Below, in pieces: positions 51,701-61,911 of a stretch of 64,000 nucleotides of DNA. The position numbers and the translations under genes are program-made. The notes under the pieces were generated by a model. It searched no databases. It had not been told where the DNA came from and saw only the letters and a list, made by a program, of their open reading frames with translations. The DNA is from Nitrospiraceae bacterium (GTDB lineage: Bacteria > Nitrospirota > Nitrospiria > Nitrospirales > Nitrospiraceae). The stretch covers positions 10,945 to 74,944 of the forward strand of contig DATIAT010000032.1 in assembly GCA_035457905.1 (NCBI GenBank), given 5' to 3'. Position 1 is the first letter of the stretch, and every line of letters begins with the position of its first letter.

Positions 51701-52783
51701 TCACAGAGCTCTCCGGCCACCGTCGCGCAATTGACGCATGAGCGCGTCGGGAATATCTCTAAGTGGCAGCACCAGGTCGACGGCCCCTGCCTGAATCGCT
51801 TCTTTCGGCATGCCGAACACGACGCAAGTCGATTCGTTCTGCGCGATCGTATAAGCGCCGGATCGCTTCATCTGGAGCAGCCCAGCCGCCCCGTCGTTAC
51901 CCATCCCGGTCAAAATGATGCCGATGCTGTTCACGCCCGCATGCTTAGCGACCGAGGCAAAGGTCACATCGACAGACGGACGGTGCCGGTTGACCGGCGT
52001 ATCCTGATTGAGGTGGACCAGATAGCGGGCGCCGCTCCGCATGAGGGTCATGTGGTAATTGCCCGGCGCGATCAGCGCATGACCGGGCAGAACACTGTCG
52101 CCGTCTTCGGCTTCTTTCACGGAAATCCGGCACAGGCTGTTCATCCGTTCTGCCCAGGTCTTCGTAAACCGCGCCGGCATGTGTTGAGTAATGAGAATCG
52201 GAGGGCTATGCGGCGGCAGCACTTCCAGCACCTCTTTCACGGCCTCGGTTCCGCCAGTGGAAGACCCGATGGCCACGATGGTATCGGTCGTCTTGATCAT
52301 CCCGGATGCCTCATGCAGCGCGCGACGAGCGACGCTGCACGCAAGTTTTTGGGTTGCCGCGGACACCTTCCCCCGAACCCGAGCGACGGCAGCCGCCTTG
52401 ACTTTTTCGATGAGCTCCTCCGCGAGTTCCTCCATCCCGCGACGGATGTCGACTTTCGGTTTCGTCACGAAATCCACGGCGCCCAGCTCCAACGCTCGGA
52501 GAGCCGTCTCGCAGCCTCGCTCCGTCAACGAACTGACCATCAATACCGGCATGGGCGTGGTCGCCATGAGTTTCTCCAGAAATTTCAGCCCGTCCATGTG
52601 AGGCATTTCCACGTCCAGCGTAAGGACGTCCGGGTGCAACGCCTCGATTTTCGTCCAAGCGCCCGTCGGGTCATGAGCGACGCCAACGACTTCGATATTC
52701 CAATCCTGCGACAATAGATGCGACAAAAACTGCCGGATCAAGGCCGAGTCGTCGACAATTAGCACTCGAATTTTCTTTGTCAT
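51701..52783 (-). CDS. cheB: Chemotaxis response regulator protein-glutamate methylesterase
   Basis: ATG at 52783 (MTKKIRVLIVDDS). REC domain plus a methylesterase domain with IGSSTGGTEA and ...GMGNDGAAGL. Confidence 0.93.
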   Translation of the reverse strand: MTKKIRVLIVDDSALIRQFLSHLLSQDWNIEVVGVAHDPTGAWTKIEALHPDVLTLDVEMPHMDGLKFLEKLMATTPMPVLMVSSLTERGCETALRALELGAVDFVTKPKVDIRRGMEELAEELIEKVKAAAVARVRGKVSAATQKLACSVARRALHEASGMIKTTDTIVAIGSSTGGTEAVKEVLEVLPPHSPPILITQHMPARFTKTWAERMNSLCRISVKEAEDGDSVLPGHALIAPGNYHMTLMRSGARYLVHLNQDTPVNRHRPSVDVTFASVAKHAGVNSIGIILTGMGNDGAAGLLQMKRSGAYTIAQNESTCVVFGMPKEAIQAGAVDLVLPLRDIPDALMRQLRDGGRRAL

Positions 52784-52840
52784 ATCTCCCCGTGCTGGCA
52801 CGTGTGACAGGCTGAAGGGCAGGCCAACGGCAGCCTTCGA

Positions 52841-53488
52841 TCAGAACAACGTGGCATCGCTTTTCGGTGTGTACGGACCATATAAGGCCGTGAACACCTT
52901 CTCTGCCTCGACAGCGCGCACGCGCTCCGCAGAATCGCCCGCCTTCATTAGCACCCGTCCAGTATCCGTATAGTAATAAACACTCCGGGCATAATCCTTC
53001 CCGAGATCGGACGCGACTGGCTGTAGTCCTTCCCGTCCCAGATATTCCAATACCCACTGCACGTTGATGGCGCCGATATCGCCACCCCCCTCATAGAGTT
53101 TTGCGCCACCGAATACTTTGACCTCCAACCGGTTCCTGTGCCCTCCATGCTTGAGTATCCCGTTGATCAGCATTTCCATCGCGTAACTGCCATATCGGGT
53201 TTTCACGTTCCACGCGCTGGAAGAAGCTGAACTGCCAGGTGCCGGTAACATGAAATGATTCACGCCTCCCACACCGGCATACGGATCACGCATGCAGACC
53301 CCCACACATGACCCGAGCAACGTCGAGATGACCACCGGCTTGTGTGAGACGAAGTATTCTCCCGCGAAGAGCGTCACCACCTCGTGATCCGGGAAACGAT
53401 GATGGCGTCGGCGTCGATTCGATGGGCCTTCCATCTGCGGGACGTTGTGATCCTCGAAAGGTTCATTACTCACGGTCCATGCTCGCAC
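52841..53488 (-). CDS. cheD: Chemoreceptor glutamine deamidase CheD
   Basis: VVISTLLGSCVGVCMRDP...GGVNHFMLP, with the catalytic Cys context typical of CheD. GTG at 53488; alternative ATG at 53434. Confidence 0.88.
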   Translation of the reverse strand: MRAWTVSNEPFEDHNVPQMEGPSNRRRRHHRFPDHEVVTLFAGEYFVSHKPVVISTLLGSCVGVCMRDPYAGVGGVNHFMLPAPGSSASSSAWNVKTRYGSYAMEMLINGILKHGGHRNRLEVKVFGGAKLYEGGGDIGAINVQWVLEYLGREGLQPVASDLGKDYARSVYYYTDTGRVLMKAGDSAERVRAVEAEKVFTALYGPYTPKSDATLF

Positions 53489-53520
53489 ACGTTTTCTTCG
53501 GTTCCATGATGCCGTAGCCG

Positions 53521-54345
53521 TTACTCCTGTTTCTGATAAATCGTCGGCGCGATATAATGGAATTCGCCGGAGATCCCCTGCAAGGTCTCCGAGTGACCCA
53601 TAAACAGGTACCCGCCCGGCTTGAGGTATCGAGATAGCCGCGCCAACACTGCTGCCTGAGTCTTACGATCGAAATAGATCATCACATTTCGGCAGAAAAT
53701 CACGTCCAGAGACGACTTGATCGGATACCGGTCATCCATCAGATTGATCCGCCGGAAGACGGCCATTTTGGCAATGTGCGGCTTAATCTTGACGACTTCT
53801 GTGTGGTCACCCTTCCCCAGGAGGAAATGCCGGCGGACGAGATCGGTCGGCAGCGAATTAATCCTCTCAATGGAGTATTGACCGGTCGCGGCCTTGGCCA
53901 GCATGCGGGTCGAGATATCGGACGCCAGGATGCGGCAGTTCCATGTCGAGGGGGAAACGATCGCGTCGGAAAGCGTCATCGCAATGGAATAGGGTTCTTC
54001 GCCGGAGGAGCAGGCTGTGGACCAGATGCGAACCGTTTTTTCCACTGCCAGCTCTGGCAACACCCGCTCTCGAAGAAACGTGAAGTGGTGCGGCTCACGG
54101 AAGAATTCCGTCTGATTCGTCGAAATGTAATCCACCATGGTGATGACCTCGTCACTTTGCCCTCCGACGACAAGGTCATAATAATCCTGAAACGACTTCA
54201 GTCCGAGTTGAGTCAGTCGTTTTTGCAGACGAGAGCTAAACAACGCTCGCTTGTGATCTGTCAAGTTGATTCCGCACTCCCGGTATATGAGCGCGCGAAA
54301 TCGCTCAAACACATCATTATTGAGGAGATATTGCTGTTCCATCAT
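53521..54345 (-). CDS. cheR: Chemotaxis protein methyltransferase CheR
   Basis: 274 aa. N-terminal helical domain, TNQTEFFREPHHF, and SAM fold RIWSTACSSGEEPYS. Confidence 0.93.
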   Translation of the reverse strand: MMEQQYLLNNDVFERFRALIYRECGINLTDHKRALFSSRLQKRLTQLGLKSFQDYYDLVVGGQSDEVITMVDYISTNQTEFFREPHHFTFLRERVLPELAVEKTVRIWSTACSSGEEPYSIAMTLSDAIVSPSTWNCRILASDISTRMLAKAATGQYSIERINSLPTDLVRRHFLLGKGDHTEVVKIKPHIAKMAVFRRINLMDDRYPIKSSLDVIFCRNVMIYFDRKTQAAVLARLSRYLKPGGYLFMGHSETLQGISGEFHYIAPTIYQKQE

Positions 54346-54584
54346 GGTTTGGTCATATTCAGGTTCAAGCCAGCGTGATCTTCCACGCGCAGCCGCAGAC
54401 TATCCCCCTGACCATCATGGACGCATGTAGTGATCGTGGGCAGGAAGCGCCAGGTATGTCACAACCTGCGGGAATCAGTCTATGGAATCCCTGCGAGGCC
54501 CCTCGCGTTTATTTTCGGCTATCGCAATGCTGTTCCACATTCCGTTTCATAATCAGCGGCAACGCATGGTGTCATTCACTATTT

Positions 54585-55610
54585 CTATTTGAGCTTCTGC
54601 ACAATAGCCCCATACCATCCAAGGCCATCATACTCCTGGTAACCAAGAGTCTTGGCAAACGCGATCACCTCATGGTTGTCATTGAAATAATGACCTTTGG
54701 GTTGTCCTTTATGGTCGAGCACGAATGGGGAAAGGATTTCATTATTGTCGGATGCTGCAATAACACGCATATTCTGATCCAACAACATCACGCGGCTGCG
54801 TTTCCATTCGTTGTCAGATAAAGAAGGCTCTTTCTGAACAACAGTCTTGGCTTGGTCTTCCCAATCAAACACTACGCCCAAGACACCGACTATCTTCCCA
54901 TGTATTTTCCCCCCCTGACGAACGGCGGCGGCGTATACCGCCACCAATCTGTTGTCATGAAGCGAAGCACGGAAAATATCATCCGCAACGTACTGATCAC
55001 CGCTCGTCGTCGCCATCGCCTTCCGGAACCAAGGTAATCTGGAAATATTGGCGCCGGTTACCCTAGGGAACTTAGTTGGCTGTGAGCAGGCGATGATTTG
55101 TCCATCAGTTCCAACCAATACAAGATTCAGATACACGGAATAATAACGATTGATCAGGGCAAGCCGTTCCACAGCACGATGAATGGAAGTTTGATCCAAT
55201 GATTCCAAACAGCGGACTAACGCCTCGTCCGTCGCCCACCAACGAACGTCAGCGGTGCGTTCGTATAAATTGCGTACAACAAACTGCACCAAAGTCAGCG
55301 CCATCTCCGAAAGACGTTGACACTCTTTTTCAACGAAACGCCGCTGCAATTCACTCGTTTCCGATCGTATGGTACCCAGCTCTTTAGAAGTGCTGGAAGC
55401 TTGTCCGGCAAGAGTTTTTACCTCGGAGGCAACCACGGCAAATTCCCTGCCCGCATTACCAGCTCTCGCCGCCTCTATGGTTGCGTTTAGCGAAAGAAGC
55501 TTGATTTGACTTGTTATTCTTTGATTCATGGATATATGGTCTTCGATCCGCTTTTCTATGCCACCTATGATGTCTTTGATGTTTTGCTGACTTCTTGTAG
55601 AGATATCCAT
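54585..55610 (-). CDS. Soluble protein with an N-terminal minimal MCP signalling hairpin followed by a Cache/PDC-like sensor domain
   Basis: 341 aa, no TM segment. Residues ~30-70 [37 protein letters not shown] match the MCP hairpin tip. The remaining ~230 aa ([16 protein letters not shown]...) look like a Cache/PDC-type ligand-binding fold. The start is firm: AAGGAG 9 nt upstream and an in-frame TAA two codons upstream. Confidence 0.7.
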
Positions 55611-55934
55611 TCTTTATTCTCCTTCGCCGAATATCCTCAGCTTGCTGGGGGACCTCCATAGAACGGAGGGACTCCTCACCCGCTCGCAATAGCTCGTCCG
55701 CCCTGAACCCTGTCGCCATCATCGAATCCGAATTGACGCTGAAGTCCCTATCCACCATGAGGCCCGAAATCGGACATGCTCGAGTGCAGGAGCACAAAAG
55801 CCGCATCTGGACATAGCGCGCGTCTGCCAATGGTCGATGCGGTCGAAGTAGATGCGTACGGGGAGCGAACGCCTTGCAGCACCGTTGGATCAATTGAAAC
55901 CACATAAGGCCGTTCAATACGACGTACCGTTGTC

Positions 55935-58715
55935 CTAGAACTCCCCGAACTCGGCTTCCGTCCGACGGCGATCCTTGCTGTTGGACTCGCAGACAACCAC
56001 TGCTTCTTCCTTGGTTTCGCCCGGTACCAGTGCAGGACCCGTTGCCCTGGATGCCTGCTTGGACCCACTAGGGTGTGCCATGGGCTCGACCGAAGACTTC
56101 AGCATGGTATGCGCGACGGCGCGCTTGGCCTGGCGGGCGCCATGTCCAATGGTATGCATATCAGTGACGCCGCCGACCTTGAACGCTTCTACTTGCCGCA
56201 GGAGCTCCATCGCCTGCTCCTTCATGGACTGCGCTGCAGAGGTGGTCTCTTCGACCAGGGCCGCGTTCTGCTGCGTGGTATCGTCCATCTGCATGATGGC
56301 CCTGTTCACCTGCTCGATCCCGCTGGCCTGTTCCTGCGATGCTGCGGTGATTTCGGCGATGATGTCCGTGACCCGCTTGACTGCGCCGACGATTTCTTCC
56401 AGCGACTTGCCGGATCGATTGACCAGATCACTGCCGTCCGTTACGCGCGCGATGGATTCGTTGATCAGGTCCTTGACCTCCTTGGCCGCTGTCGCCGCGC
56501 GTTGGGCCAGGTTGCGTACTTCGGAGGCCACGACCGCAAAGCCGCGGCCATGTTCCCCTGCCCTCGCCGCTTCGACCGCAGCGTTCAAGGCCAGGAGGTT
56601 GGTCTGGAAGGCGATCTCGTCTATAACCGTGATGATATCGGCGATCTTCTTGCTGCTCTTATTGATCTCGCCCATCGCCTCGACCGCGCGGATCGTGACC
56701 GATCCACCTTTCTCCGCGATGTCGCGGGCTGCGATGGCCAACTGATTGGCCTGCTTGGCGTTGTCGGCGTTCTGACCCACAGTCGAGGTCATCTCCTCCA
56801 TGGACGCGGAGGTCTCTTCGAGTGCGCTGGCCTGTTCGGACGTGCGCTGCGAAAGGTCTTCGCTGCCCTTGGTGATCTGCTCCGACCCGGCCGTGACGCC
56901 TTCCACTGTATCGCGTACGCTGATTATGGTATGGGAAAGATTTGTGATCGCGGTATTGATGCTCTCTTTGATCTTTGCCAACTCGCCCTGATAAGTTCCT
57001 CCCATCTGCTGCGTGAGGTCGCCTTGCGCCAGTGCGCCGAGCGACTTCTGGGCTTCGGCTATACATGTTTCGAGTTCAAGTTGAGCCTTCTTCTGTGCCG
57101 TCACATCCGTACCAAACTTCGCCACCTTGTACACCTTGCCATTCGCATCCATGATCGGATTGTAAGAGGCTTCAATCCAGACTTCCTTGCCTCCCTTCCC
57201 GAGCTGCCTGAAGACTCCCGATGCCAACTCACCTCGATTTAGCTTCGCCCAAAAGTTGGCGTACTCCTGGCTGTTCGAGTAGGACGCCTCACAGAACATG
57301 CGATGATGTTTGCCTTTGACCTCGTCCAAACTGTAGCCCGTGGCATTCAAGAAATTGTCGTTGGCGGTGATGATCGTACCGTCCAGGTTGAACTCGATGA
57401 CCGCCTGAACCTTGCTGAAGGCGTTCGTAATCTCTCTAATCTTGACATCCGCGTCCTGGAGATGCTTTCCCATTTCGTTGAATGCGTTCCCGAGTTGTCC
57501 GATTTCATCGCTGCTCTTCACCTCGACGCGGGTCCCGAACTGGCCGGCTGCCATCGTTCCCACTGCGTCGGTCACTCGACGGAGAACCTTCGCGGTGCGA
57601 CGTCCAATGAAGGTTCCCACCAACATGGTACCGACGACGCAAGCAATCGCGCTGAACCCCACACGGCGCTGAAGAGACCAGGCGATAGCGGCAGCCTGAT
57701 CCTGTGGGACACGAATGAGAATCGACCAGTTCATGCCGGGGTAGCCCAGTGCGCCGCGCAGGTGCGCGTAACCGGACGTCTGTCTGATATGCGTGCGTAT
57801 ATGCACACTGGGTCCATAGCCGGTCGCGCCACCGACGGCGGCCTTGGCTGGGATGCTACCGGCGTCGACCATATTGAACTTCATCAGATCATTGAAGTCG
57901 TGACGCACTTCCTCCGTGCCCGCTCCCGTCGGGTCATAATTCATGATGAGGCGCCCCACTCCATCAATCAAAGTCAGCTCTGTCGCCGCATAGCCGGCTT
58001 CCTTCAGTTCAAGATAGGATGATTTCACTATGTCTTCGACCACGGAAAACTTCGTTCGATTGGTCCAATAGGCTATTACCTTTCCGTCCTGATAGACCGG
58101 CGCGGAAAAGGCGATCGTAAGTCCGTCGGAGTCTGGATAGGCGGCTTTCACATCCTGATCCACATGCAGATCTTCAATGAAGGTGCCGGTCGCACTGTTG
58201 TTGCCAGGAGACGAGAAGGGCATAGCGGTTGTGAACCGACCGGACAGGAGAGCCTGGAACCATGGAGTGTCACGATAGTTCTTTTGATAGATCGATGCTA
58301 CGCGGATCGGCTTCCCATTTGAATCCCTCGAATTGACCGCTATGACCTTGCCGTCGAGATCGACGAGAATGGCGAGCGAGTAGACACCGTAGGTCGCGAT
58401 GTATTGATTCATCGTCTTCACGATGTCGCTTGTCTCCTCGCTCGTCTTGTACCAGTCGGCTCGGTTGAAGACAACGCGGTTCAACCCGAACGCCTGTACG
58501 TCGCCGTAGCGTTCGAACAGGTTCCGGTCGATCTTGTCGGCGATACTCTGAGCCATCCACTGGAATCGGATGCCGACACCGGTTTCCAGGTCCTTGCTCG
58601 CGTCGTATGCAATGCCCCCGACGATCGCCATCGGCAACACACCGAACAGAAAGAACAATACAGTCAGTTTCGCCGTCAACCCCCAGCTGCGCAACATGTT
58701 CACGCACCGCTTCAT
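55935..58715 (-). CDS. Methyl-accepting chemotaxis protein (TM-double-Cache-TM-HAMP-PAS-MA) with a C-terminal EFGEF tail
   Basis: 926 aa. Periplasmic ~300-aa dCache-like region; HAMP ([10 protein letters not shown]); PAS ([22 protein letters not shown]); tip [35 protein letters not shown] ~75-aa unstructured tail ends in EFGEF. Confidence 0.92.
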
Positions 58716-58792: not shown

Positions 58793-59296
58793 TCATGCCG
58801 TCGCAGCGGCCGCCTCTTGCATGCACCCCTCGGTCAGTAACTGATCGATATTCAGCAGCGCCACCAACTTGTCGCCGGATTTCCCGATGCCGGACAAAAA
58901 TTTCACATCTATTTTGGTTCCAAAGTCCGGGGAGGCCTGGATGTCCTTTTGGCTCATATGGACAACATCCGACACGGAGTCCACCACCAGCCCAAGCGTG
59001 CGATCTCGCACAATCACGAGGATGATGACGGTAAACGCCGTGTAGTCAATGGTCGGCATGCCAAACGCCGTACGTAATTCGACGATCGGTACAATGGTGC
59101 CGCGGAGGTTCAAGACCCCTTTGATGTGCGAGGGCATGTTCGGAATTTTGGTGATGGCCGAATACCCCTTGATCTCTTTGACCCGATGGATGTCTATCCC
59201 ATACAGTTCATCTCCAAGAGAGAAGGTCAGGAACTGGTTGTCTTCCGCCCCGATTCCCTGCTGTTGTCCAGATCCTTGCGCGGCTACCGCGGTCAT
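58793..59296 (-). CDS. cheW: CheW coupling protein
   Basis: FLTFSLGDELYGIDIHRVKEI...NLRGTIVPIVELR. I prefer the ATG at 59296 (AGGAGGAGGACGCT upstream) over the track TTG at 59347, which lies inside a repeat. Confidence 0.9.
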   Translation of the reverse strand: MTAVAAQGSGQQQGIGAEDNQFLTFSLGDELYGIDIHRVKEIKGYSAITKIPNMPSHIKGVLNLRGTIVPIVELRTAFGMPTIDYTAFTVIILVIVRDRTLGLVVDSVSDVVHMSQKDIQASPDFGTKIDVKFLSGIGKSGDKLVALLNIDQLLTEGCMQEAAAATA

Positions 59297-59341
59297 AGCG
59301 TCCTCCTCCTGGCGTTCCGGTTTGTCCGGACGATCTTGCAT

Positions 59342-59377
59342 AACCAAACAAACGAGACAAACCTAAGCAACCAGCGA
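59342..59377. repeat. Half copy (right-arm type) of the 9-nt periodic repeat in the cheA-cheW spacer
   Basis: aaccaaaca/aacgagaca/aacctaagc/aaccagcga, an exact 9-nt phase with AAC at each unit start. Confidence 0.65.
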
Positions 59378-59380
59378 TAT

Positions 59381-61531
59381 TTACACTGCGATTGACTGCT
59401 CCTGTCTCGCCATCTTCATCAAACCCCTGACGTCGAGAATGAGTCCGACCGTACCATCGCCAAGAATCGTCGCCCCTGCCACGCCATCGACCTTTCGGAA
59501 GTTCTCCTCGATACTTTTTATGACTACTTGCTGCTGCCCCAGGATTTCATCCACCATGACGACCACGCGGTCCCCTTCGGCTTCCAAAATGAGCAAGATG
59601 GCCTCTGCAGGGTTCTTGTGCTGCGGCTGCAGATTAAACACCTCGTACAAACGCAAGATAGGATAAAAGACCCCACGGATATTGACACCTTCGCCTTTCC
59701 CGATGAAGGTCGTCACCATGTCGGCCTTCGGTTGGATGGACTCCAGGATGGACAGCAGCGGCACGATATACTTGTCCTGCCCGACCCGAATTGTCATCCC
59801 CTCGATTATGGCGAGAGTCAGCGGCAGATTGAGCGTGAAGATGGTCCCCCGGCCTGTTACTGTCTTGATGTTCACGAGGCCGCCCAGCTCTTCGACGTTG
59901 CGCTTGACTATGTCCATCCCCACCCCACGACCCGACACGTCCGTCAGTTCCTCGGTAGTCGTAAAGCCAGGCCGGAAGATGAGAGCCCAGACCTGGTCGT
60001 CGGGCAGGGTGTCGTTGCCGGTGATTATTCCCTGCTTAATTGCCTTCGCCAGAATCTTGTCGCGGTTCAAGCCTCGCCCGTCGTCTTCGACCGTGATGCA
60101 GATCTTGCCGCCTTCGTGAAATGAATTGAGCCGGATCGTGCCCTGCTCCGGTTTGCCGGCAGCGACCCGTTCCTCTGGTGGCTCCAAAGCGTGGTCACAC
60201 GCATTTCGGACCAGGTGCGTCAGCGGATCACCGATGGCTTCGATGACGGTTTTATCGAGTTCGGTCTCTTCGCCGGAAATGGCAAGTTGAATTTTCTTCC
60301 TCATTTTTGCCGAAAGGTCGCGGACCAGTCTCGGGAAGCGGCTGAACGCAGTCCCGATTGGCAGCATGCGAATGCCCATCACGCGTTCCTGGATCTCCCG
60401 TGTATTGCGTTCCAACTGGAGCAGCCGTTCCTGCAAGATAGGAAGATGCTCGATTTCGAAACGCGCCCCCAGAGCGCTCAGCATGGACTGAGTAATGGCC
60501 AGTTCTCCGACCAGATTGACCAGCTTGTCGACTTTTTCCGTGTCGACGCGCATGGAGGTTTCCACTTTTTGATCTTTTGACTTTGCGCGGAGTGTTTCTT
60601 GCCGATCCAACGCCTTGGCAAGCTGCGCCGGCGTTACCGCTTTCTGCTCGACAAGAATGACCCCGAGCGAGTCCGACCTCTGCCCAAAAAACACTTCAGC
60701 GAGCCGTGGATCATCTTCCTCGCCGATAACTGAATGCGCGAGCTGGGGATCGGCCTCTTGCGTCGGTTTCGCGGAAGAACTGGACGAAGGCAGCGACGCG
60801 ATTGTCAACCCGCCTGGAGAAGCCGCAAATTCGAAGACGGATTCAATGTCCGCGCACGGATACTCGGTCTCCAGCGTACACGTCCAAGAGAGATAACAGC
60901 GTTGTGGATCAAGATCGGCAAAATCCGGCAAGCGACTCGTAGCGAGCACGCAAGACCTGATGGTTCCCATCCGGCCTATCTCTTCGAACAGTTTGAGCGG
61001 ATTCAATCCCCGTTGGAACAAATCTTCATCAGGTATCCAACTAATTTGATAGGTCCGACGCACTGATGTGACGGGTGGCGGCGCTGCAGGTGCCGTCGAC
61101 GACGGGCCAGAAGTCGTTTTCTGACCGGGAGCAGGCGCAGGAATTATCATGCAAGTCTCCAACCTGGCCTCTAGATCACGCACCGTTTTGCTCTCGTCGA
61201 TGACCGTCCCGTTCTTGGCCGCCTCGACCAGCATTTTCAGGCAATCGGCGGACTCCAACAGCAGATCGATGATCTCGCGGGTCGCCGAAAATTTCCTGTT
61301 CCGGAGGGGATCGAGCACGGTCTCTACCTCATGGGCAAACCGACTCATGGTCGTGAATCCGAACATCGGCCCGGCCCCTTTTATGGTATGGACCGACCGG
61401 AAAATTCGATTCAGGACTTCGACATCGTTGGGATTCTGTTCGAGGATGAGGAGGCCGGATTCCAACACGGCTAGGTGTTCGGTGACTTCCTCAAAAAATG
61501 TCTGCAGAAACTTCGAGTAATCGCCGTTCAC
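59381..61531 (-). CDS. cheA: Chemotaxis histidine kinase CheA (P1-P5)
   Basis: P1 FRSVHTIKGAG; P4 HLVRNACDHALE, DDGRGLN, GRGVGMDIV, GRGTIF; P5 CheW-like. The likely start is GTG at 61531, overlapping the cheY TAG by 1 nt (TAGTG) and giving VNGDYSKFLQTFFEE. The track TTG at 61594 would overlap cheY by 64 nt. Confidence 0.93.
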   Translation of the reverse strand: MNGDYSKFLQTFFEEVTEHLAVLESGLLILEQNPNDVEVLNRIFRSVHTIKGAGPMFGFTTMSRFAHEVETVLDPLRNRKFSATREIIDLLLESADCLKMLVEAAKNGTVIDESKTVRDLEARLETCMIIPAPAPGQKTTSGPSSTAPAAPPPVTSVRRTYQISWIPDEDLFQRGLNPLKLFEEIGRMGTIRSCVLATSRLPDFADLDPQRCYLSWTCTLETEYPCADIESVFEFAASPGGLTIASLPSSSSSAKPTQEADPQLAHSVIGEEDDPRLAEVFFGQRSDSLGVILVEQKAVTPAQLAKALDRQETLRAKSKDQKVETSMRVDTEKVDKLVNLVGELAITQSMLSALGARFEIEHLPILQERLLQLERNTREIQERVMGIRMLPIGTAFSRFPRLVRDLSAKMRKKIQLAISGEETELDKTVIEAIGDPLTHLVRNACDHALEPPEERVAAGKPEQGTIRLNSFHEGGKICITVEDDGRGLNRDKILAKAIKQGIITGNDTLPDDQVWALIFRPGFTTTEELTDVSGRGVGMDIVKRNVEELGGLVNIKTVTGRGTIFTLNLPLTLAIIEGMTIRVGQDKYIVPLLSILESIQPKADMVTTFIGKGEGVNIRGVFYPILRLYEVFNLQPQHKNPAEAILLILEAEGDRVVVMVDEILGQQQVVIKSIEENFRKVDGVAGATILGDGTVGLILDVRGLMKMARQEQSIAV

Positions 61532-61911
61532 TATGGCAATACCTTTCGTATGACCTTCAGGATCAATTCCGAGTCGAACGGCTTCACCAACCAACCGGTC
61601 GCGCCCGCCGCCCTCCCGACCTCTTTCTTTTCGTCGGTATTGTCCGTCGTGAGTACAAGCACTGGCACATGTTTGAAAGCTGAAAGTTTTCTGATCTCTC
61701 TGACCAATTCGATCCCGTCCATCTCCGGCATATTAATGTCCGTGACGATCACGTCTGGCTTCGTCCCCCCTACCTCCATCGTCGTCAGCTTGATCAGCGC
61801 ATCCTTGCCGTTTTCAGCCTCTTTGGTCTCAAAGCCGGCTTCGTTCAGCGCATGCGACACCATTCCCCGCATCGTCGGCGAATCATCGACTACTAGGATT
61901 ACCCTGCTCAT
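61531..61911 (-). CDS. cheY: Chemotaxis response regulator CheY
   Basis: 126 aa. ILVVDDSPTMR, DVIVTDINMPEMDG, WLVKPF. Confidence 0.93.
   Translation of the reverse strand: MSRVILVVDDSPTMRGMVSHALNEAGFETKEAENGKDALIKLTTMEVGGTKPDVIVTDINMPEMDGIELVREIRKLSAFKHVPVLVLTTDNTDEKKEVGRAAGATGWLVKPFDSELILKVIRKVLP

What the first reader, a model, noticed from the sequence alone, without database searches (positions are those of the whole stretch)
54585..55610. Inverted, minimal soluble chemoreceptor: the signalling hairpin tip comes first and the Cache-like sensor last
Seen in sequence: this is a 341-aa protein with no TM segments. Its first ~100 residues contain the highly conserved MCP hairpin tip ([36 protein letters not shown]), flanked by only ~35 and ~35-45 helical residues. 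Canonical MCP signalling domains have arms that are several-fold longer and carry the methylation helices. The remaining ~230 aa resemble a Cache/PDC ligand-binding fold placed C-terminal to the signalling region, which is the reverse of the usual order. The start codon is well supported: AAGGAG at -9 and an in-frame stop two codons upstream. It is therefore not a truncated annotation of a longer receptor. Inference: it may insert into arrays as a methylation-independent cytoplasmic sensor, or cap or poison trimers of dimers.
Basis: partly seen in the sequence, partly recalled or inferred. Interest (0 to 1): 0.62.

Follow-up and report, generated by a model that had tools for sequence, protein, structure and literature searches.

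The report
Miniature soluble chemoreceptor, Cache sensor last
This Nitrospira gene encodes a small, membrane-free chemotaxis receptor that keeps only the kinase-docking tip of a normal receptor and joins it directly to an intracellular double-Cache sensor; the design recurs in hundreds of bacterial species, and I found no paper describing it.

Summary
ORF 54585-55610 (minus strand, 341 aa) has no TM segment. Residues 19-82 match Pfam MCPsignal, profile positions 32-95 of 172. The rest folds as a dCache (AlphaFold pLDDT above 95; Foldseek hits DctB, PctA and Tlp3, E 1e-13 to 1e-10). A model of residues 1-130 overlays the Tsr tip hairpin at 1.6-2.0 A.

The hairpin has about 7 heptads per arm. 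The shortest recognised class, 24H, has 12. It carries no methylation consensus sites; the neighbouring 926-aa MCP has four.

It is not a truncation. More than 120 full-length Nitrospira homologues exist, dN/dS is about 0.18, and at least 596 species loci carry the family motif (Rhizobium, Agrobacterium, Devosia, Micavibrio, Planctomycetes, Burkholderia).

In Nitrospira the gene always sits among flagellar or che genes. This assembly has only three MCP genes. The same dCache clade is fused to CheW in Desulfobacterota.

Best reading (0.58): a cytoplasmic, methylation-independent receptor that docks on CheA/CheW through its tip. The ligand is unknown and is not an amino acid. The sister clade lies next to ammonium transporters.

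C-terminal sensors on MCPs are already known, so this is a new variant of a known kind. No binding or signalling step has been shown.

The parts
54585..55610 (-). Complete gene for the 341-aa soluble mini-chemoreceptor (stop codon 54585-54587)
   Evidence: ORF list and translation. Full-length homologues of 334-342 aa. dN/dS is about 0.18.
55619..55624 (-). Shine-Dalgarno AAGGAG, 8 nt upstream of the ATG. An in-frame TAA lies at 55614-55616.
   Evidence: Read directly from the sequence.
55461..55610 (-). N-arm of the hairpin, residues 1-50, about 7 heptads. Residue 1 aligns with about Tsr 340, the level of the glycine hinge.
   Evidence: phmmer alignment to Tsr 1qu7/8c5v, query 9-84 against Tsr 349-423. 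Fragment model plus Foldseek.
55449..55460 (-). U-turn of the hairpin, residues 51-54 (G-N-A-G). G51 and G54 are invariant in the family.
   Evidence: Alignments A1 and A3 have invariant N42, G51, G54 and F57. These correspond to Tsr N381, G390, G393 and F396.
55323..55448 (-). C-arm of the hairpin, residues 55-96. It ends at the junction position, which is Gly in most family members and Cys97 here.
   Evidence: Alignment A3. The fragment model overlays 6s1k_E over 94 columns at rmsd 2.0 A.
55365..55556 (-). Stretch matched by Pfam MCPsignal (residues 19-82, profile positions 32-95 of 172)
55236..55322 (-). Long first helix of the dCache domain (residues 97-125), continuous with the hairpin C-arm. 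It carries the family signature R113-N-L-x-E-R-x-x-D-x-R-W-W125.
   Evidence: DSSP shows helix 3-125. Invariant columns in A1, A2 and A3. The same motif occurs in the CheW-fused relatives.
54588..55235 (-). The two PAS-like modules of the dCache domain (residues 126-341). The protein ends right after the second module, with no following helix or TM.
   Evidence: AlphaFold2 pLDDT 96-98 over this part. Foldseek hits DctB, CtaA, PctA and Tlp3 with TMt 0.6-0.78.
55935..58715 (-). Upstream neighbour: 926-aa transmembrane MCP (dCache_1-HAMP-PAS-MCPsignal) with four methylation consensus sites and a C-terminal EFGEF
   Evidence: Pfam, motif scan, translation
51701..54345 (-). Downstream neighbours cheR (53521-54345), cheD (52841-53488) and cheB (51701-52801)
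   Evidence: Pfam
58793..61911 (-). Further upstream in the same cluster: cheW (58793-59347), cheA (59381-61594) and a CheY-like gene (61531-61911)
   Evidence: Pfam for cheW and cheA. The CheY-like gene is similar to the receiver-domain genes of L012.

Best explanation
The gene encodes a cytoplasmic, adaptation-free chemoreceptor of the flagellar chemotaxis pathway. Two chains probably pair, as in all MCPs. Their N-terminal hairpins (residues about 3-96, roughly 7 heptads per arm) would form a short four-helix bundle. That bundle corresponds to the protein-interaction tip of a normal receptor, the part below the glycine hinge of Tsr. It would dock on CheW and the P5 domain of CheA. The C-arm helix runs without a linker into the first long helix of a double-Cache domain that sits on top of the bundle. 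A small intracellular ligand bound in the Cache domain would shift that helix and so alter the tip, changing CheA activity. The protein has no methylation helices, so it cannot adapt on its own. It most likely works beside, or in mixed trimers with, the full-length 926-aa receptor encoded next to it. Shown here: domain content, fold, hairpin length, lack of methylation sites, conservation, and gene context. Inferred: dimerisation, binding to CheA/CheW, ligand control, and the direction of the signal.
For: The tip is homologous to canonical MCP tips. Pfam MCPsignal gives E 1.7e-17. Tsr and the Tm14 tip fragments co-crystallised with CheA/CheW (4jpb, 3ur1) match at E about 1e-9. The family-invariant residues N42, G51, G54 and F57, and the nearly invariant E46, V60 and A61, correspond to Tsr N381, G390, G393, F396, E385, V399 and A400. 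The model of residues 1-130 overlays the Tsr tip of the E. coli core signalling unit 6s1k_E (94 columns, rmsd 2.0 A, TMt 0.78) and 1qu7_B (86 columns, 1.6 A). The dCache fold is predicted with high confidence. The mini-receptor has no methylation consensus site; the neighbouring MCP has four. In this genome the gene lies in cheY-cheA-cheW-mcp-[gene]-cheR-cheD-cheB. In the second Nitrospira genus that has it, the order is fliD-GGDEF-PilZ-[gene]-cheY-cheZ-motA-motB-...-cheY-cheA-cheW. The assembly holds only three MCPsignal genes, and the tip is closest to that of the adjacent MCP (54% identity over 59 aa). Both halves are under purifying selection: dN/dS is 0.26 for the tip and 0.17 for the dCache. 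It behaves like an accessory receptor, not a core part: 2 of 91 Nitrospiraceae genomes have it against 29 of 91 with the cheA orthologue, and both carriers also have cheA. The same dCache clade, with the same RNLYER..D.RWW motif, is fused to CheW in Desulfobacterota. That is a second route to the same baseplate.
Against: No experiment or complex prediction shows binding to CheA or CheW, and no multimer modelling was possible. Three bulky dCache dimers only about 75 A above the tip may not fit in a homotrimer of dimers; this is my own geometric estimate, not a computation. Some tip positions differ from Tsr in this protein: F373 to S34, E391 to N52, G395 to E56. The Gly at the hairpin/dCache junction, conserved in most relatives, is Cys here. 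Canonical dCache receptors send their signal out through the C-terminal helix, which this protein lacks, so the output route proposed here has no precedent. Outside Nitrospira the gene is not linked to che genes, though that is also true of most MCP genes. No RNA data were obtained.
Confidence: 0.58

Rival explanations
1. Array modulator or decoy. The tip docks on CheW/CheA, or invades trimers of the full-length receptor, but does not itself switch the kinase. The Cache domain only regulates how much of the protein enters the array. The protein would therefore tune gain or uncouple kinase from receptors in response to an internal signal.
For: The hairpin contains only the protein-interaction region and has no adaptation sites. 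The bulky sensor so near the tip argues against regular homotrimers (my inference). The gene is accessory and often lost or decayed in Nitrospira: it is patchy, one copy carries an internal TGA, and one is a 3' remnant.
Against: The helix linking tip and sensor is continuous and highly conserved, which is what a transmitting device would need. The family persists as an orphan MCP-like gene in hundreds of species that have many receptors. In this genome it is one of only two receptors of the flagellar cluster.
Confidence: 0.2
2. Repurposed receptor fragment with a role outside kinase control. The precedent is Tls of E. coli phylogroup B2, a truncated Trg that represses flagellar gene expression. 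Here the tip would sequester a flagellar or c-di-GMP regulator under control of the Cache domain.
For: Tls shows that a truncated fragment of an MCP cytoplasmic signalling domain can gain a non-chemotaxis function (PMC12623472). In the second Nitrospira genus the gene follows GGDEF and PilZ genes and lies next to fliD.
Against: Tls is a recent, lineage-restricted truncation. This family is ancient and spans phyla. The residues conserved in the tip are those conserved in all MCPs for trimer and CheA/CheW contacts. Fusion of the same sensor clade to CheW points to the array.
Confidence: 0.08
3. Pseudogene or mis-annotated 5' truncation of an ordinary MCP.
For: Only the short MCPsignal match, and the existence of decayed copies in some relatives.
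Against: There is a strong RBS and an upstream in-frame stop. More than 120 homologues of 334-341 aa share the same start. 54 of the 150 best 50%-identity cluster representatives, all soluble proteins of 325-400 aa, share the full tip-plus-dCache architecture, and more do if fragments are counted. dN/dS is about 0.18. The sequence recurs in 20 independent soil metagenome runs.
Confidence: 0.01

Closest known systems
Class IV (cytoplasmic) chemoreceptors with a C-terminal sensor, e.g. Helicobacter pylori TlpD (CZB domain) and the 17 C-terminal domain types catalogued by Ortega and Krell 2020 (PMC7390727)
   Same: It is soluble, has no TM or HAMP, and the sensor domain follows the MCP signalling region.
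   Different: By my own knowledge, those receptors keep a full-length signalling domain with methylation helices. Here only about 7 heptads per arm remain and no methylation site is present. dCache_1 is not among the listed C-terminal domain types; Cache_3-Cache_2 and sCache_3 are.
Canonical transmembrane dCache_1 chemoreceptors and kinases (P. aeruginosa PctA/PctC, P. fluorescens CtaA, C. jejuni Tlp3, V. cholerae and S. meliloti DctB)
   Same: The double PAS-like sensor fold is the same: Foldseek E 1e-13 to 1e-10, TMt 0.6-0.78. The Trp equivalent to Tlp3 W151 is conserved as W194.
   Different: Those domains are periplasmic, lie between two TM helices and signal through the C-terminal helix. 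This one is cytoplasmic, is the last domain of the protein, and is joined to the output module through its first helix. The amino-acid-binding residues of Tlp3 (Y118, K149, Y167, D169, D196; residue list from my own recollection of the Tlp3 structure papers) are not conserved. The clade has its own invariant set: R113, N114, E117, R118, D121, R123, W124, W125, R149, Y157, R231, W250.
Thermotoga maritima Tm14 (soluble MCP, PDB 3g67) and its engineered tip fragments crystallised with CheA P4-P5 and CheW (3ur1, 4jpb)
   Same: It is a soluble receptor. The 85-90-residue tip fragments, about the size of this hairpin, match it at E about 2e-9. By their published complexes (my knowledge), they suffice to bind CheA/CheW.
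   Different: Natural Tm14 has 213 residues of hairpin and no sensor domain. The short fragments are laboratory constructs, whereas this is a natural tip-only protein with a sensor.
Heptad classes of MCPs (24H to 64H; Alexander and Zhulin 2007, as implemented in MiST 3.0, PMC6943060)
   Same: The conserved tip and hairpin geometry are the same.
   Different: Twelve classes from 24H to 64H are recognised. The N-arm here has at most 51 residues (about 7 heptads), against 12 heptads per arm in 24H. Across the family the turn-to-sensor spacing is fixed at a modal 71 residues, 66 here, with a separate 112-residue class.
Tls of E. coli B2 strains (truncated Trg; PMC12623472)
   Same: It is a soluble protein made of part of an MCP signalling domain.
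   Different: Tls is a recent truncation with a 9-residue novel N-terminus and no sensor, and it acts on flagellar gene expression. The present family is old, widespread and carries a conserved sensor.

Membership tests
Methyl-accepting chemotaxis proteins (Pfam PF00015 MCPsignal) | Conserved hairpin tip (protein-interaction region) scoring above the curated cut-off | tested here: met
   64.2 bits against a 34.6-bit cut-off, residues 19-82. Invariant N42, G51, G54 and F57. The model overlays Tsr tip structures at 1.6-2.0 A.
Methyl-accepting chemotaxis proteins (Pfam PF00015 MCPsignal) | Full signalling domain with flexible bundle and methylation helices bearing [ASTG][ASTG]xx[EQ][EQ]xx[ASTG][ASTG] sites | tested here: not met
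   Only profile positions 32-95 of 172 are matched. At most 51 residues precede the turn. There are no consensus sites, against four in the neighbouring MCP used as a control.
Methyl-accepting chemotaxis proteins (Pfam PF00015 MCPsignal) | Membership of one of the twelve heptad classes 24H-64H | tested here: inconclusive
   The arm length of about 7 heptads is below 24H by simple counting. The class-specific HMMs of MiST were not available here.
Methyl-accepting chemotaxis proteins (Pfam PF00015 MCPsignal) | Binds CheW and CheA and controls kinase activity | not testable with these tools
   Support is indirect only: che/flagellar gene neighbourhood in two Nitrospira genera.
dCache_1 (Pfam PF02743) | Profile score above the curated cut-off | tested here: not met
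   31.3 bits against a 45-bit cut-off for this protein. Relatives of the same clade pass: P0132 scores 78, P0181 65, P0155 63 bits.
dCache_1 (Pfam PF02743) | Long N-terminal helix followed by two PAS-like (PDC) modules | tested here: met
   The AlphaFold2 model has pLDDT 96-98 in this part. Foldseek top hits are all dCache sensor domains.
dCache_1 (Pfam PF02743) | Extracytoplasmic location between two TM helices | tested here: not met
   There is no hydrophobic segment. The domain is the C-terminal end of a soluble protein.
dCache_1 amino-acid sensors (Tlp3/PctA type) | Conserved ligand-contact residues (Tlp3 Y118, K149, W151, Y167, D169, D196; list from my own knowledge) | tested here: not met
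   In the profile-to-4xmq alignment only W151 has a conserved counterpart, W194. The alignment is weak (E 0.007), so individual positions are uncertain.
Cytoplasmic (class IV) chemoreceptors with C-terminal sensor | Soluble MCP whose sensor follows the signalling domain | tested here: met
   the category is described in PMC7390727

The most novel reading that the evidence does not exclude
The family may be a cytoplasmic sensor of nitrogen status, detecting ammonium or a metabolite that tracks it such as 2-oxoglutarate or glutamine. If so, Nitrospira would use it to steer by its internal nitrogen supply. The Nitrospira genes nest in the tree inside a clade of Micavibrio-like and 'Rickettsiales' genomes (support 100/98). 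In and around that clade the gene lies directly beside an ammonium transporter gene in three different arrangements. Earlier notes of this scan also report the family in an ammonia-oxidising archaeon. If true, it would also show that a tip of about 7 heptads is enough for ligand-controlled kinase regulation, with the signal entering through the first helix of a Cache domain.
Probability: 0.12. Interest if true: 0.8.

Novelty: new variant of a known kind. Interest (0 to 1): 0.6.

Why it matters
Current models of chemoreceptor signalling pass the stimulus through a long four-helix bundle with HAMP, methylation and flexible-bundle regions before it reaches the kinase-control tip. A natural, widespread receptor that joins a sensor directly to the tip would be a minimal system. 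It could be used to ask what the tip alone needs in order to switch CheA, and how a receptor without methylation sites behaves inside an adapting array.

It would also place dCache, which by my own knowledge of the Cache literature is regarded as mainly an extracellular sensor family, inside the cell. There it occurs in two array-linked forms, tip-fused and CheW-fused.

For Nitrospira, a key nitrifier with very few receptors, this protein is one of only two receptors of the flagellar pathway in this assembly. Its ligand is therefore likely to be a main cue for motility.

Tried and rejected
1. Truncation or pseudogene. Rejected on homologue lengths, start-site evidence and dN/dS.
2. Straight helix instead of a hairpin. 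DSSP printed one continuous helix, residues 3-125, in both models. I tested this by searching the 1-130 model against the PDB. It overlays hairpin tips at 1.6-2.0 A over 86-94 columns, which a straight helix could not do.
3. Amino-acid sensor of the Tlp3/PctA type. Rejected because the contact residues are not conserved.
4. The RNLYER..D.RWW helix as a coupling device specific to the hairpin. Rejected because the motif is also present in the CheW-fused tandem dCache proteins.
5. Own promoter or terminator around the gene. No sigma-70-like site and no minus-strand terminator were found in the 324-bp and 239-bp flanking gaps, and there are no repeats. This is uninformative for an organism whose promoters may differ.
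6. Expression evidence. Only DNA (soil metagenome) runs hold the stretch, and no RNA run was found.
7. Is MtpA, the cytosolic formaldehyde-taxis receptor of Methylobacterium aquaticum 22A (PMC10613068), a family member? The paper and its supplement give no sequence or length, so this stays an open lead.
8. Literature. Eight full-text searches found no description of this architecture. The review of cytoplasmic chemoreceptors by Collins et al. 2014 is not held and could not be checked.
9. NCBIfam has no family-level model for the protein; it gives only sub-threshold tip matches to named MCPs.
Full report
**1. The observation**

The minus-strand ORF 54585..55610 encodes 341 residues. The ATG is preceded by AAGGAG at a spacing of 8 nt, and by an in-frame TAA two codons upstream. 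The highest Kyte-Doolittle 19-residue mean is 1.18, so there is no membrane segment.

Pfam finds MCPsignal at residues 19-82. This covers only profile positions 32-95 of 172, with E 1.7e-17 and 64 bits against a 34.6-bit cut-off. Pfam also finds a sub-threshold dCache_1 match at residues 139-249, 31 bits against a 45-bit cut-off. NCBIfam gives only sub-threshold tip matches to named receptors.

**2. Structure**

An AlphaFold2 model built from a 59-sequence family alignment has mean pLDDT 92.6 and pTM 0.80, with pLDDT 96-98 over residues 100-330. Foldseek against the PDB returns only double-Cache sensor domains at the top:
- V. cholerae DctB 3by9, E 1.8e-13, TMt 0.71-0.73
- S. meliloti DctB
- CtaA, PctA and PctC
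- C. jejuni Tlp3

. The C-terminal 245 residues are therefore a dCache domain.

DSSP printed a single helix for residues 3-125, so I tested whether the N-terminal part is really a hairpin. A separate model of residues 1-130 (pLDDT 85) overlays three reference structures:
- the 102-residue Tsr tip in the E. coli core signalling unit 6s1k_E: 94 columns, rmsd 2.0 A, TMt 0.78
- 1qu7_B: 86 columns, 1.6 A
- T. maritima Tm14 (3g67)

A straight helix could not give these fits. The C-arm runs on without a break into the first long helix of the dCache domain.

**3. How short is the hairpin**

Sequence alignment places query residues 9-84 on Tsr 349-423. Residue 1 therefore corresponds to about Tsr 340, the level of the glycine hinge. 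The hairpin/dCache junction at about residue 97 corresponds to about Tsr 436-439. The protein thus keeps just the protein-interaction region of a receptor.

The N-arm has at most 51 residues, about 7 heptads. MiST recognises twelve classes from 24H to 64H (PMC6943060), and the shortest has 12 heptads per arm.

Among the family representatives that carry both the turn and the RWW motif, the spacing from the turn to the dCache signature motif is nearly fixed. The mode is 71 residues; it is 66 in the Nitrospira clade, and a separate class has 112. The N-arm varies from 38 to 114 residues.

The methylation consensus is absent from this protein. It is present four times in the neighbouring 926-aa MCP, which served as a positive control.

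Residues invariant across the family are N42, G51, G54 and F57; E46, V60 and A61 are nearly invariant. These are the counterparts of Tsr N381, G390, G393, F396, E385, V399 and A400, the universally conserved tip positions. Local departures in this protein are S34 for F373, N52 for E391 and E56 for G395.

**4. Not a truncation, but a large family**

- More than 120 cluster representatives of 334-341 aa at 73-95% identity were listed, all with the same start. Those that carry a source name are labelled Nitrospira, Nitrospiraceae or Nitrospirota.
- Against 15 Nitrospira orthologues the median dN/dS is 0.18: 0.26 for the tip and 0.17 for the dCache.
- An exhaustive HMMER search with residues 95-341 found 850 cluster representatives at E <= 1e-3 and 545 at E <= 1e-10.
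- Of the best 150, 54 are complete soluble proteins of 325-400 aa with the same tip-plus-dCache layout. More have it if fragments are counted.
They fall in Nitrospira, Micavibrio-like and 'Rickettsiales' MAGs, Rhizobium, Agrobacterium vitis, R. rhizogenes, Devosia, Rhodospirillales, Planctomycetota and others.
- PLSDB adds Tistrella, Burkholderia, Paraburkholderia, Caballeronia, Ralstonia, Methylobacterium and Niveispirillum. Where annotated, four of the eleven hits are called 'methyl-accepting chemotaxis protein' and one 'hypothetical protein'.
- The stretch itself is present in 20 independent soil metagenome runs.

**5. Variants of the same sensor clade**

Pfam on selected relatives shows three variants:
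- a tandem duplication of the whole unit (P0132, 714 aa)
- versions with a longer MCPsignal match, profile 2-150 of 172, ahead of the dCache (P0126 and P0130, 453-477 aa)
- proteins of 820-907 aa with a leader, two dCache domains and a C-terminal CheW domain

The CheW-fused proteins are common. The named sources for them are mostly Desulfobacterota (Pseudodesulfovibrio, Desulfatibacillum, Desulfonatronum), plus Desulfuromonas, Denitrovibrio, Deferribacterales and one Cellvibrionaceae. They are annotated as CheW. They carry the same signature helix DRNLYER..D.RWWA. That motif therefore belongs to the sensor, not to the coupling with the hairpin. The sensor clade is attached to the chemosensory baseplate in two independent ways.

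**6. Genomic context and distribution in Nitrospira**

In the window the gene order on the minus strand is cheY-like, cheA, cheW, mcp(926 aa), this gene, cheR, cheD, cheB. A second, Chp-like cluster follows.

In the other Nitrospira genus that has the gene, the order is fliD, unknown, GGDEF, PilZ, this gene, cheY, cheZ, motA, motB, unknown, cheZ-like, cheY, cheA, cheW. The same two arrangements recur in named Nitrospira MAGs. The link to the flagellar chemotaxis genes therefore survives rearrangement.

The assembly is 86% complete and holds only three MCPsignal genes: the 926-aa MCP, this gene, and the 623-aa MCP of the Chp-like cluster. The tip is closest to that of the 926-aa neighbour, at 54% over 59 residues.

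In a sample of 91 genomes of the family, 29 have the cheA orthologue but only 2 have this gene, and both of those have cheA. In a phylum sample, 7 of 201 genomes have it, in two genera. Decayed copies exist: one with an internal TGA (G162) and one 3' remnant (G077:C98). This is the behaviour of an accessory receptor.

A maximum-likelihood tree of 77 proteins places the 14 Nitrospira sequences (support 100/100) inside a 19-sequence clade (100/98). Its other members are labelled Micavibrio (filed under Bdellovibrionota), 'Rickettsiales' MAGs and a Rhodocyclaceae MAG. Together with the patchy distribution, this points to horizontal acquisition.

Outside Nitrospira the gene is usually an orphan, as most MCP genes are.

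**7. Ligand**

A profile of the sensor aligns weakly with Tlp3 (4xmq, E 0.007). The chain numbering could be mapped onto the published ligand-contact residues, which I list from my own knowledge. Only W151 has a conserved counterpart, W194. Y118, K149, Y167, D169 and D196 do not. An amino-acid ligand is therefore unlikely.

The clade has its own invariant or nearly invariant set: R113, N114, E117, R118, D121, R123, W124, W125, R149, Y157, Y160, W194, F195, R231, G242 and W250. Such uniformity across phyla suggests a single ligand common to all members. I could not map these residues on the model because coordinates are not exposed.

One lead comes from earlier notes of this scan, which I checked. 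An ammonium transporter gene (PF00909, E about 1e-100 or better) lies directly beside the receptor gene in 5 of the 80 fetched loci:
- upstream in L031, L032 and L033
- downstream in L034
- as a divergent paralogue upstream in L038

. Four of these five belong to or adjoin the sister clade of the Nitrospira genes, and L038 sits in a separate small clade. This is suggestive of a nitrogen-related cue, but it is confined to a small part of the family.

**8. Mechanism**

Most likely (0.58), the protein is a cytoplasmic receptor that docks on CheW and CheA-P5 through a short dimeric four-helix bundle. A ligand-induced change would pass from the dCache first helix straight into the C-arm of the tip. 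With no methylation sites it cannot adapt by itself. Working in mixed trimers with the full-length neighbour would solve two problems: adaptation, and the likely steric clash of three bulky sensors about 75 A above the tip. That distance is my own estimate.

Rivals:
- a ligand-gated decoy or uncoupler of arrays (0.2)
- a repurposed fragment acting on flagellar regulation, by analogy with Tls of E. coli B2, PMC12623472 (0.08)
- a pseudogene (0.01)

None of the protein-protein or ligand steps has been shown.

**9. Comparison with what is known, and novelty**

Sensors placed after the MCP signalling domain are established. Ortega and Krell list 17 Pfam domain types in that position, with CZB the most frequent, and including Cache_3-Cache_2 and sCache_3 but not dCache_1 (PMC7390727). 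By my own knowledge, those receptors keep full-length signalling domains.

Natural soluble receptors without a sensor (Tm14) and engineered tip fragments that bind CheA/CheW (3ur1, 4jpb) are the nearest structural precedents.

Three features are not described in anything I could find:
- a hairpin of about 7 heptads per arm
- its rigid fusion to a cytoplasmic dCache
- the parallel CheW-fused form

Eight full-text searches gave nothing, including none for phrases such as 'cytoplasmic Cache domain'. The main review of cytoplasmic receptors (Collins et al. 2014) is not held, so a passing mention elsewhere cannot be excluded.

I rate it a new variant of a known kind, with interest 0.6.

Noticed in passing
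P0181, P0204, P0309, P0334 and more than 100 relatives (not in the window): Proteins of 820-907 aa with a leader, two tandem cytoplasmic dCache domains of the same RNLYER..D.RWW clade and a C-terminal CheW domain. They are common, mainly in Desulfobacterota, with Deferribacterales and others, and are annotated simply as CheW. A sensor-bearing CheW appears undescribed in the papers searched.
   Followed up: partly
L031 6193-7842, L032 6630-7943, L033 3476-4213, L034 9087-10427, L038 6576-7940: An ammonium transporter gene (PF00909) lies directly beside the mini-receptor gene in 5 of 80 loci, in three different arrangements. Most of these loci are in or next to the clade that is sister to the Nitrospira genes.
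   Followed up: partly
whole assembly G000 (window = C32:10945-74944): The 86%-complete Nitrospira assembly has only three MCPsignal genes. All lie in this window: the 926-aa MCP, the mini-receptor and the 623-aa MCP of the Chp-like cluster.
   Followed up: yes
window 55935-58715 (-): The neighbouring 926-aa dCache-HAMP-PAS MCP has four methylation consensus sites (residues 629, 636, 790, 818) and ends in EFGEF, a candidate CheR/CheB tether. The mini-receptor has neither.
   Followed up: partly
L017 8204-8890 (G077:C98) and L007/L010 (G162:C10): There are decayed copies in other Nitrospira. One is a 3' remnant covering residues about 205-338 downstream of a hybrid histidine kinase, with a frame-shifted piece. 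The other is a full-length copy interrupted by a TGA.
   Followed up: partly
P0132 (714 aa); P0126, P0128, P0129, P0130 (453-477 aa); L096 8001-10231: The family has variants. One is a tandem fusion of two tip-dCache units in one chain. Another class has a hairpin about 41 residues longer per arm (turn-to-motif spacing 112). A Ferrovibrionaceae genome has two adjacent gene copies.
   Followed up: no
residue 120 of the protein (window 55251-55253) and family alignments A1-A3: Most family members have Cys in the signature ERTCDVRWW, whereas the Nitrospira clade and some others have Ala. Most members also have Gly at the hairpin/dCache junction, where this protein has Cys97.
   Followed up: no
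window 54346-54584 and 55611-55934: The gene is flanked by unusually long gaps for an operon, 239 and 324 bp. No sigma-70-like promoter, minus-strand terminator or repeat was detected in them.
   Followed up: partly
literature: PMC10613068: MtpA of Methylobacterium aquaticum 22A is a cytosolic MCP in which only an MCPsignal domain was detected. It mediates formaldehyde taxis.
   Followed up: partly
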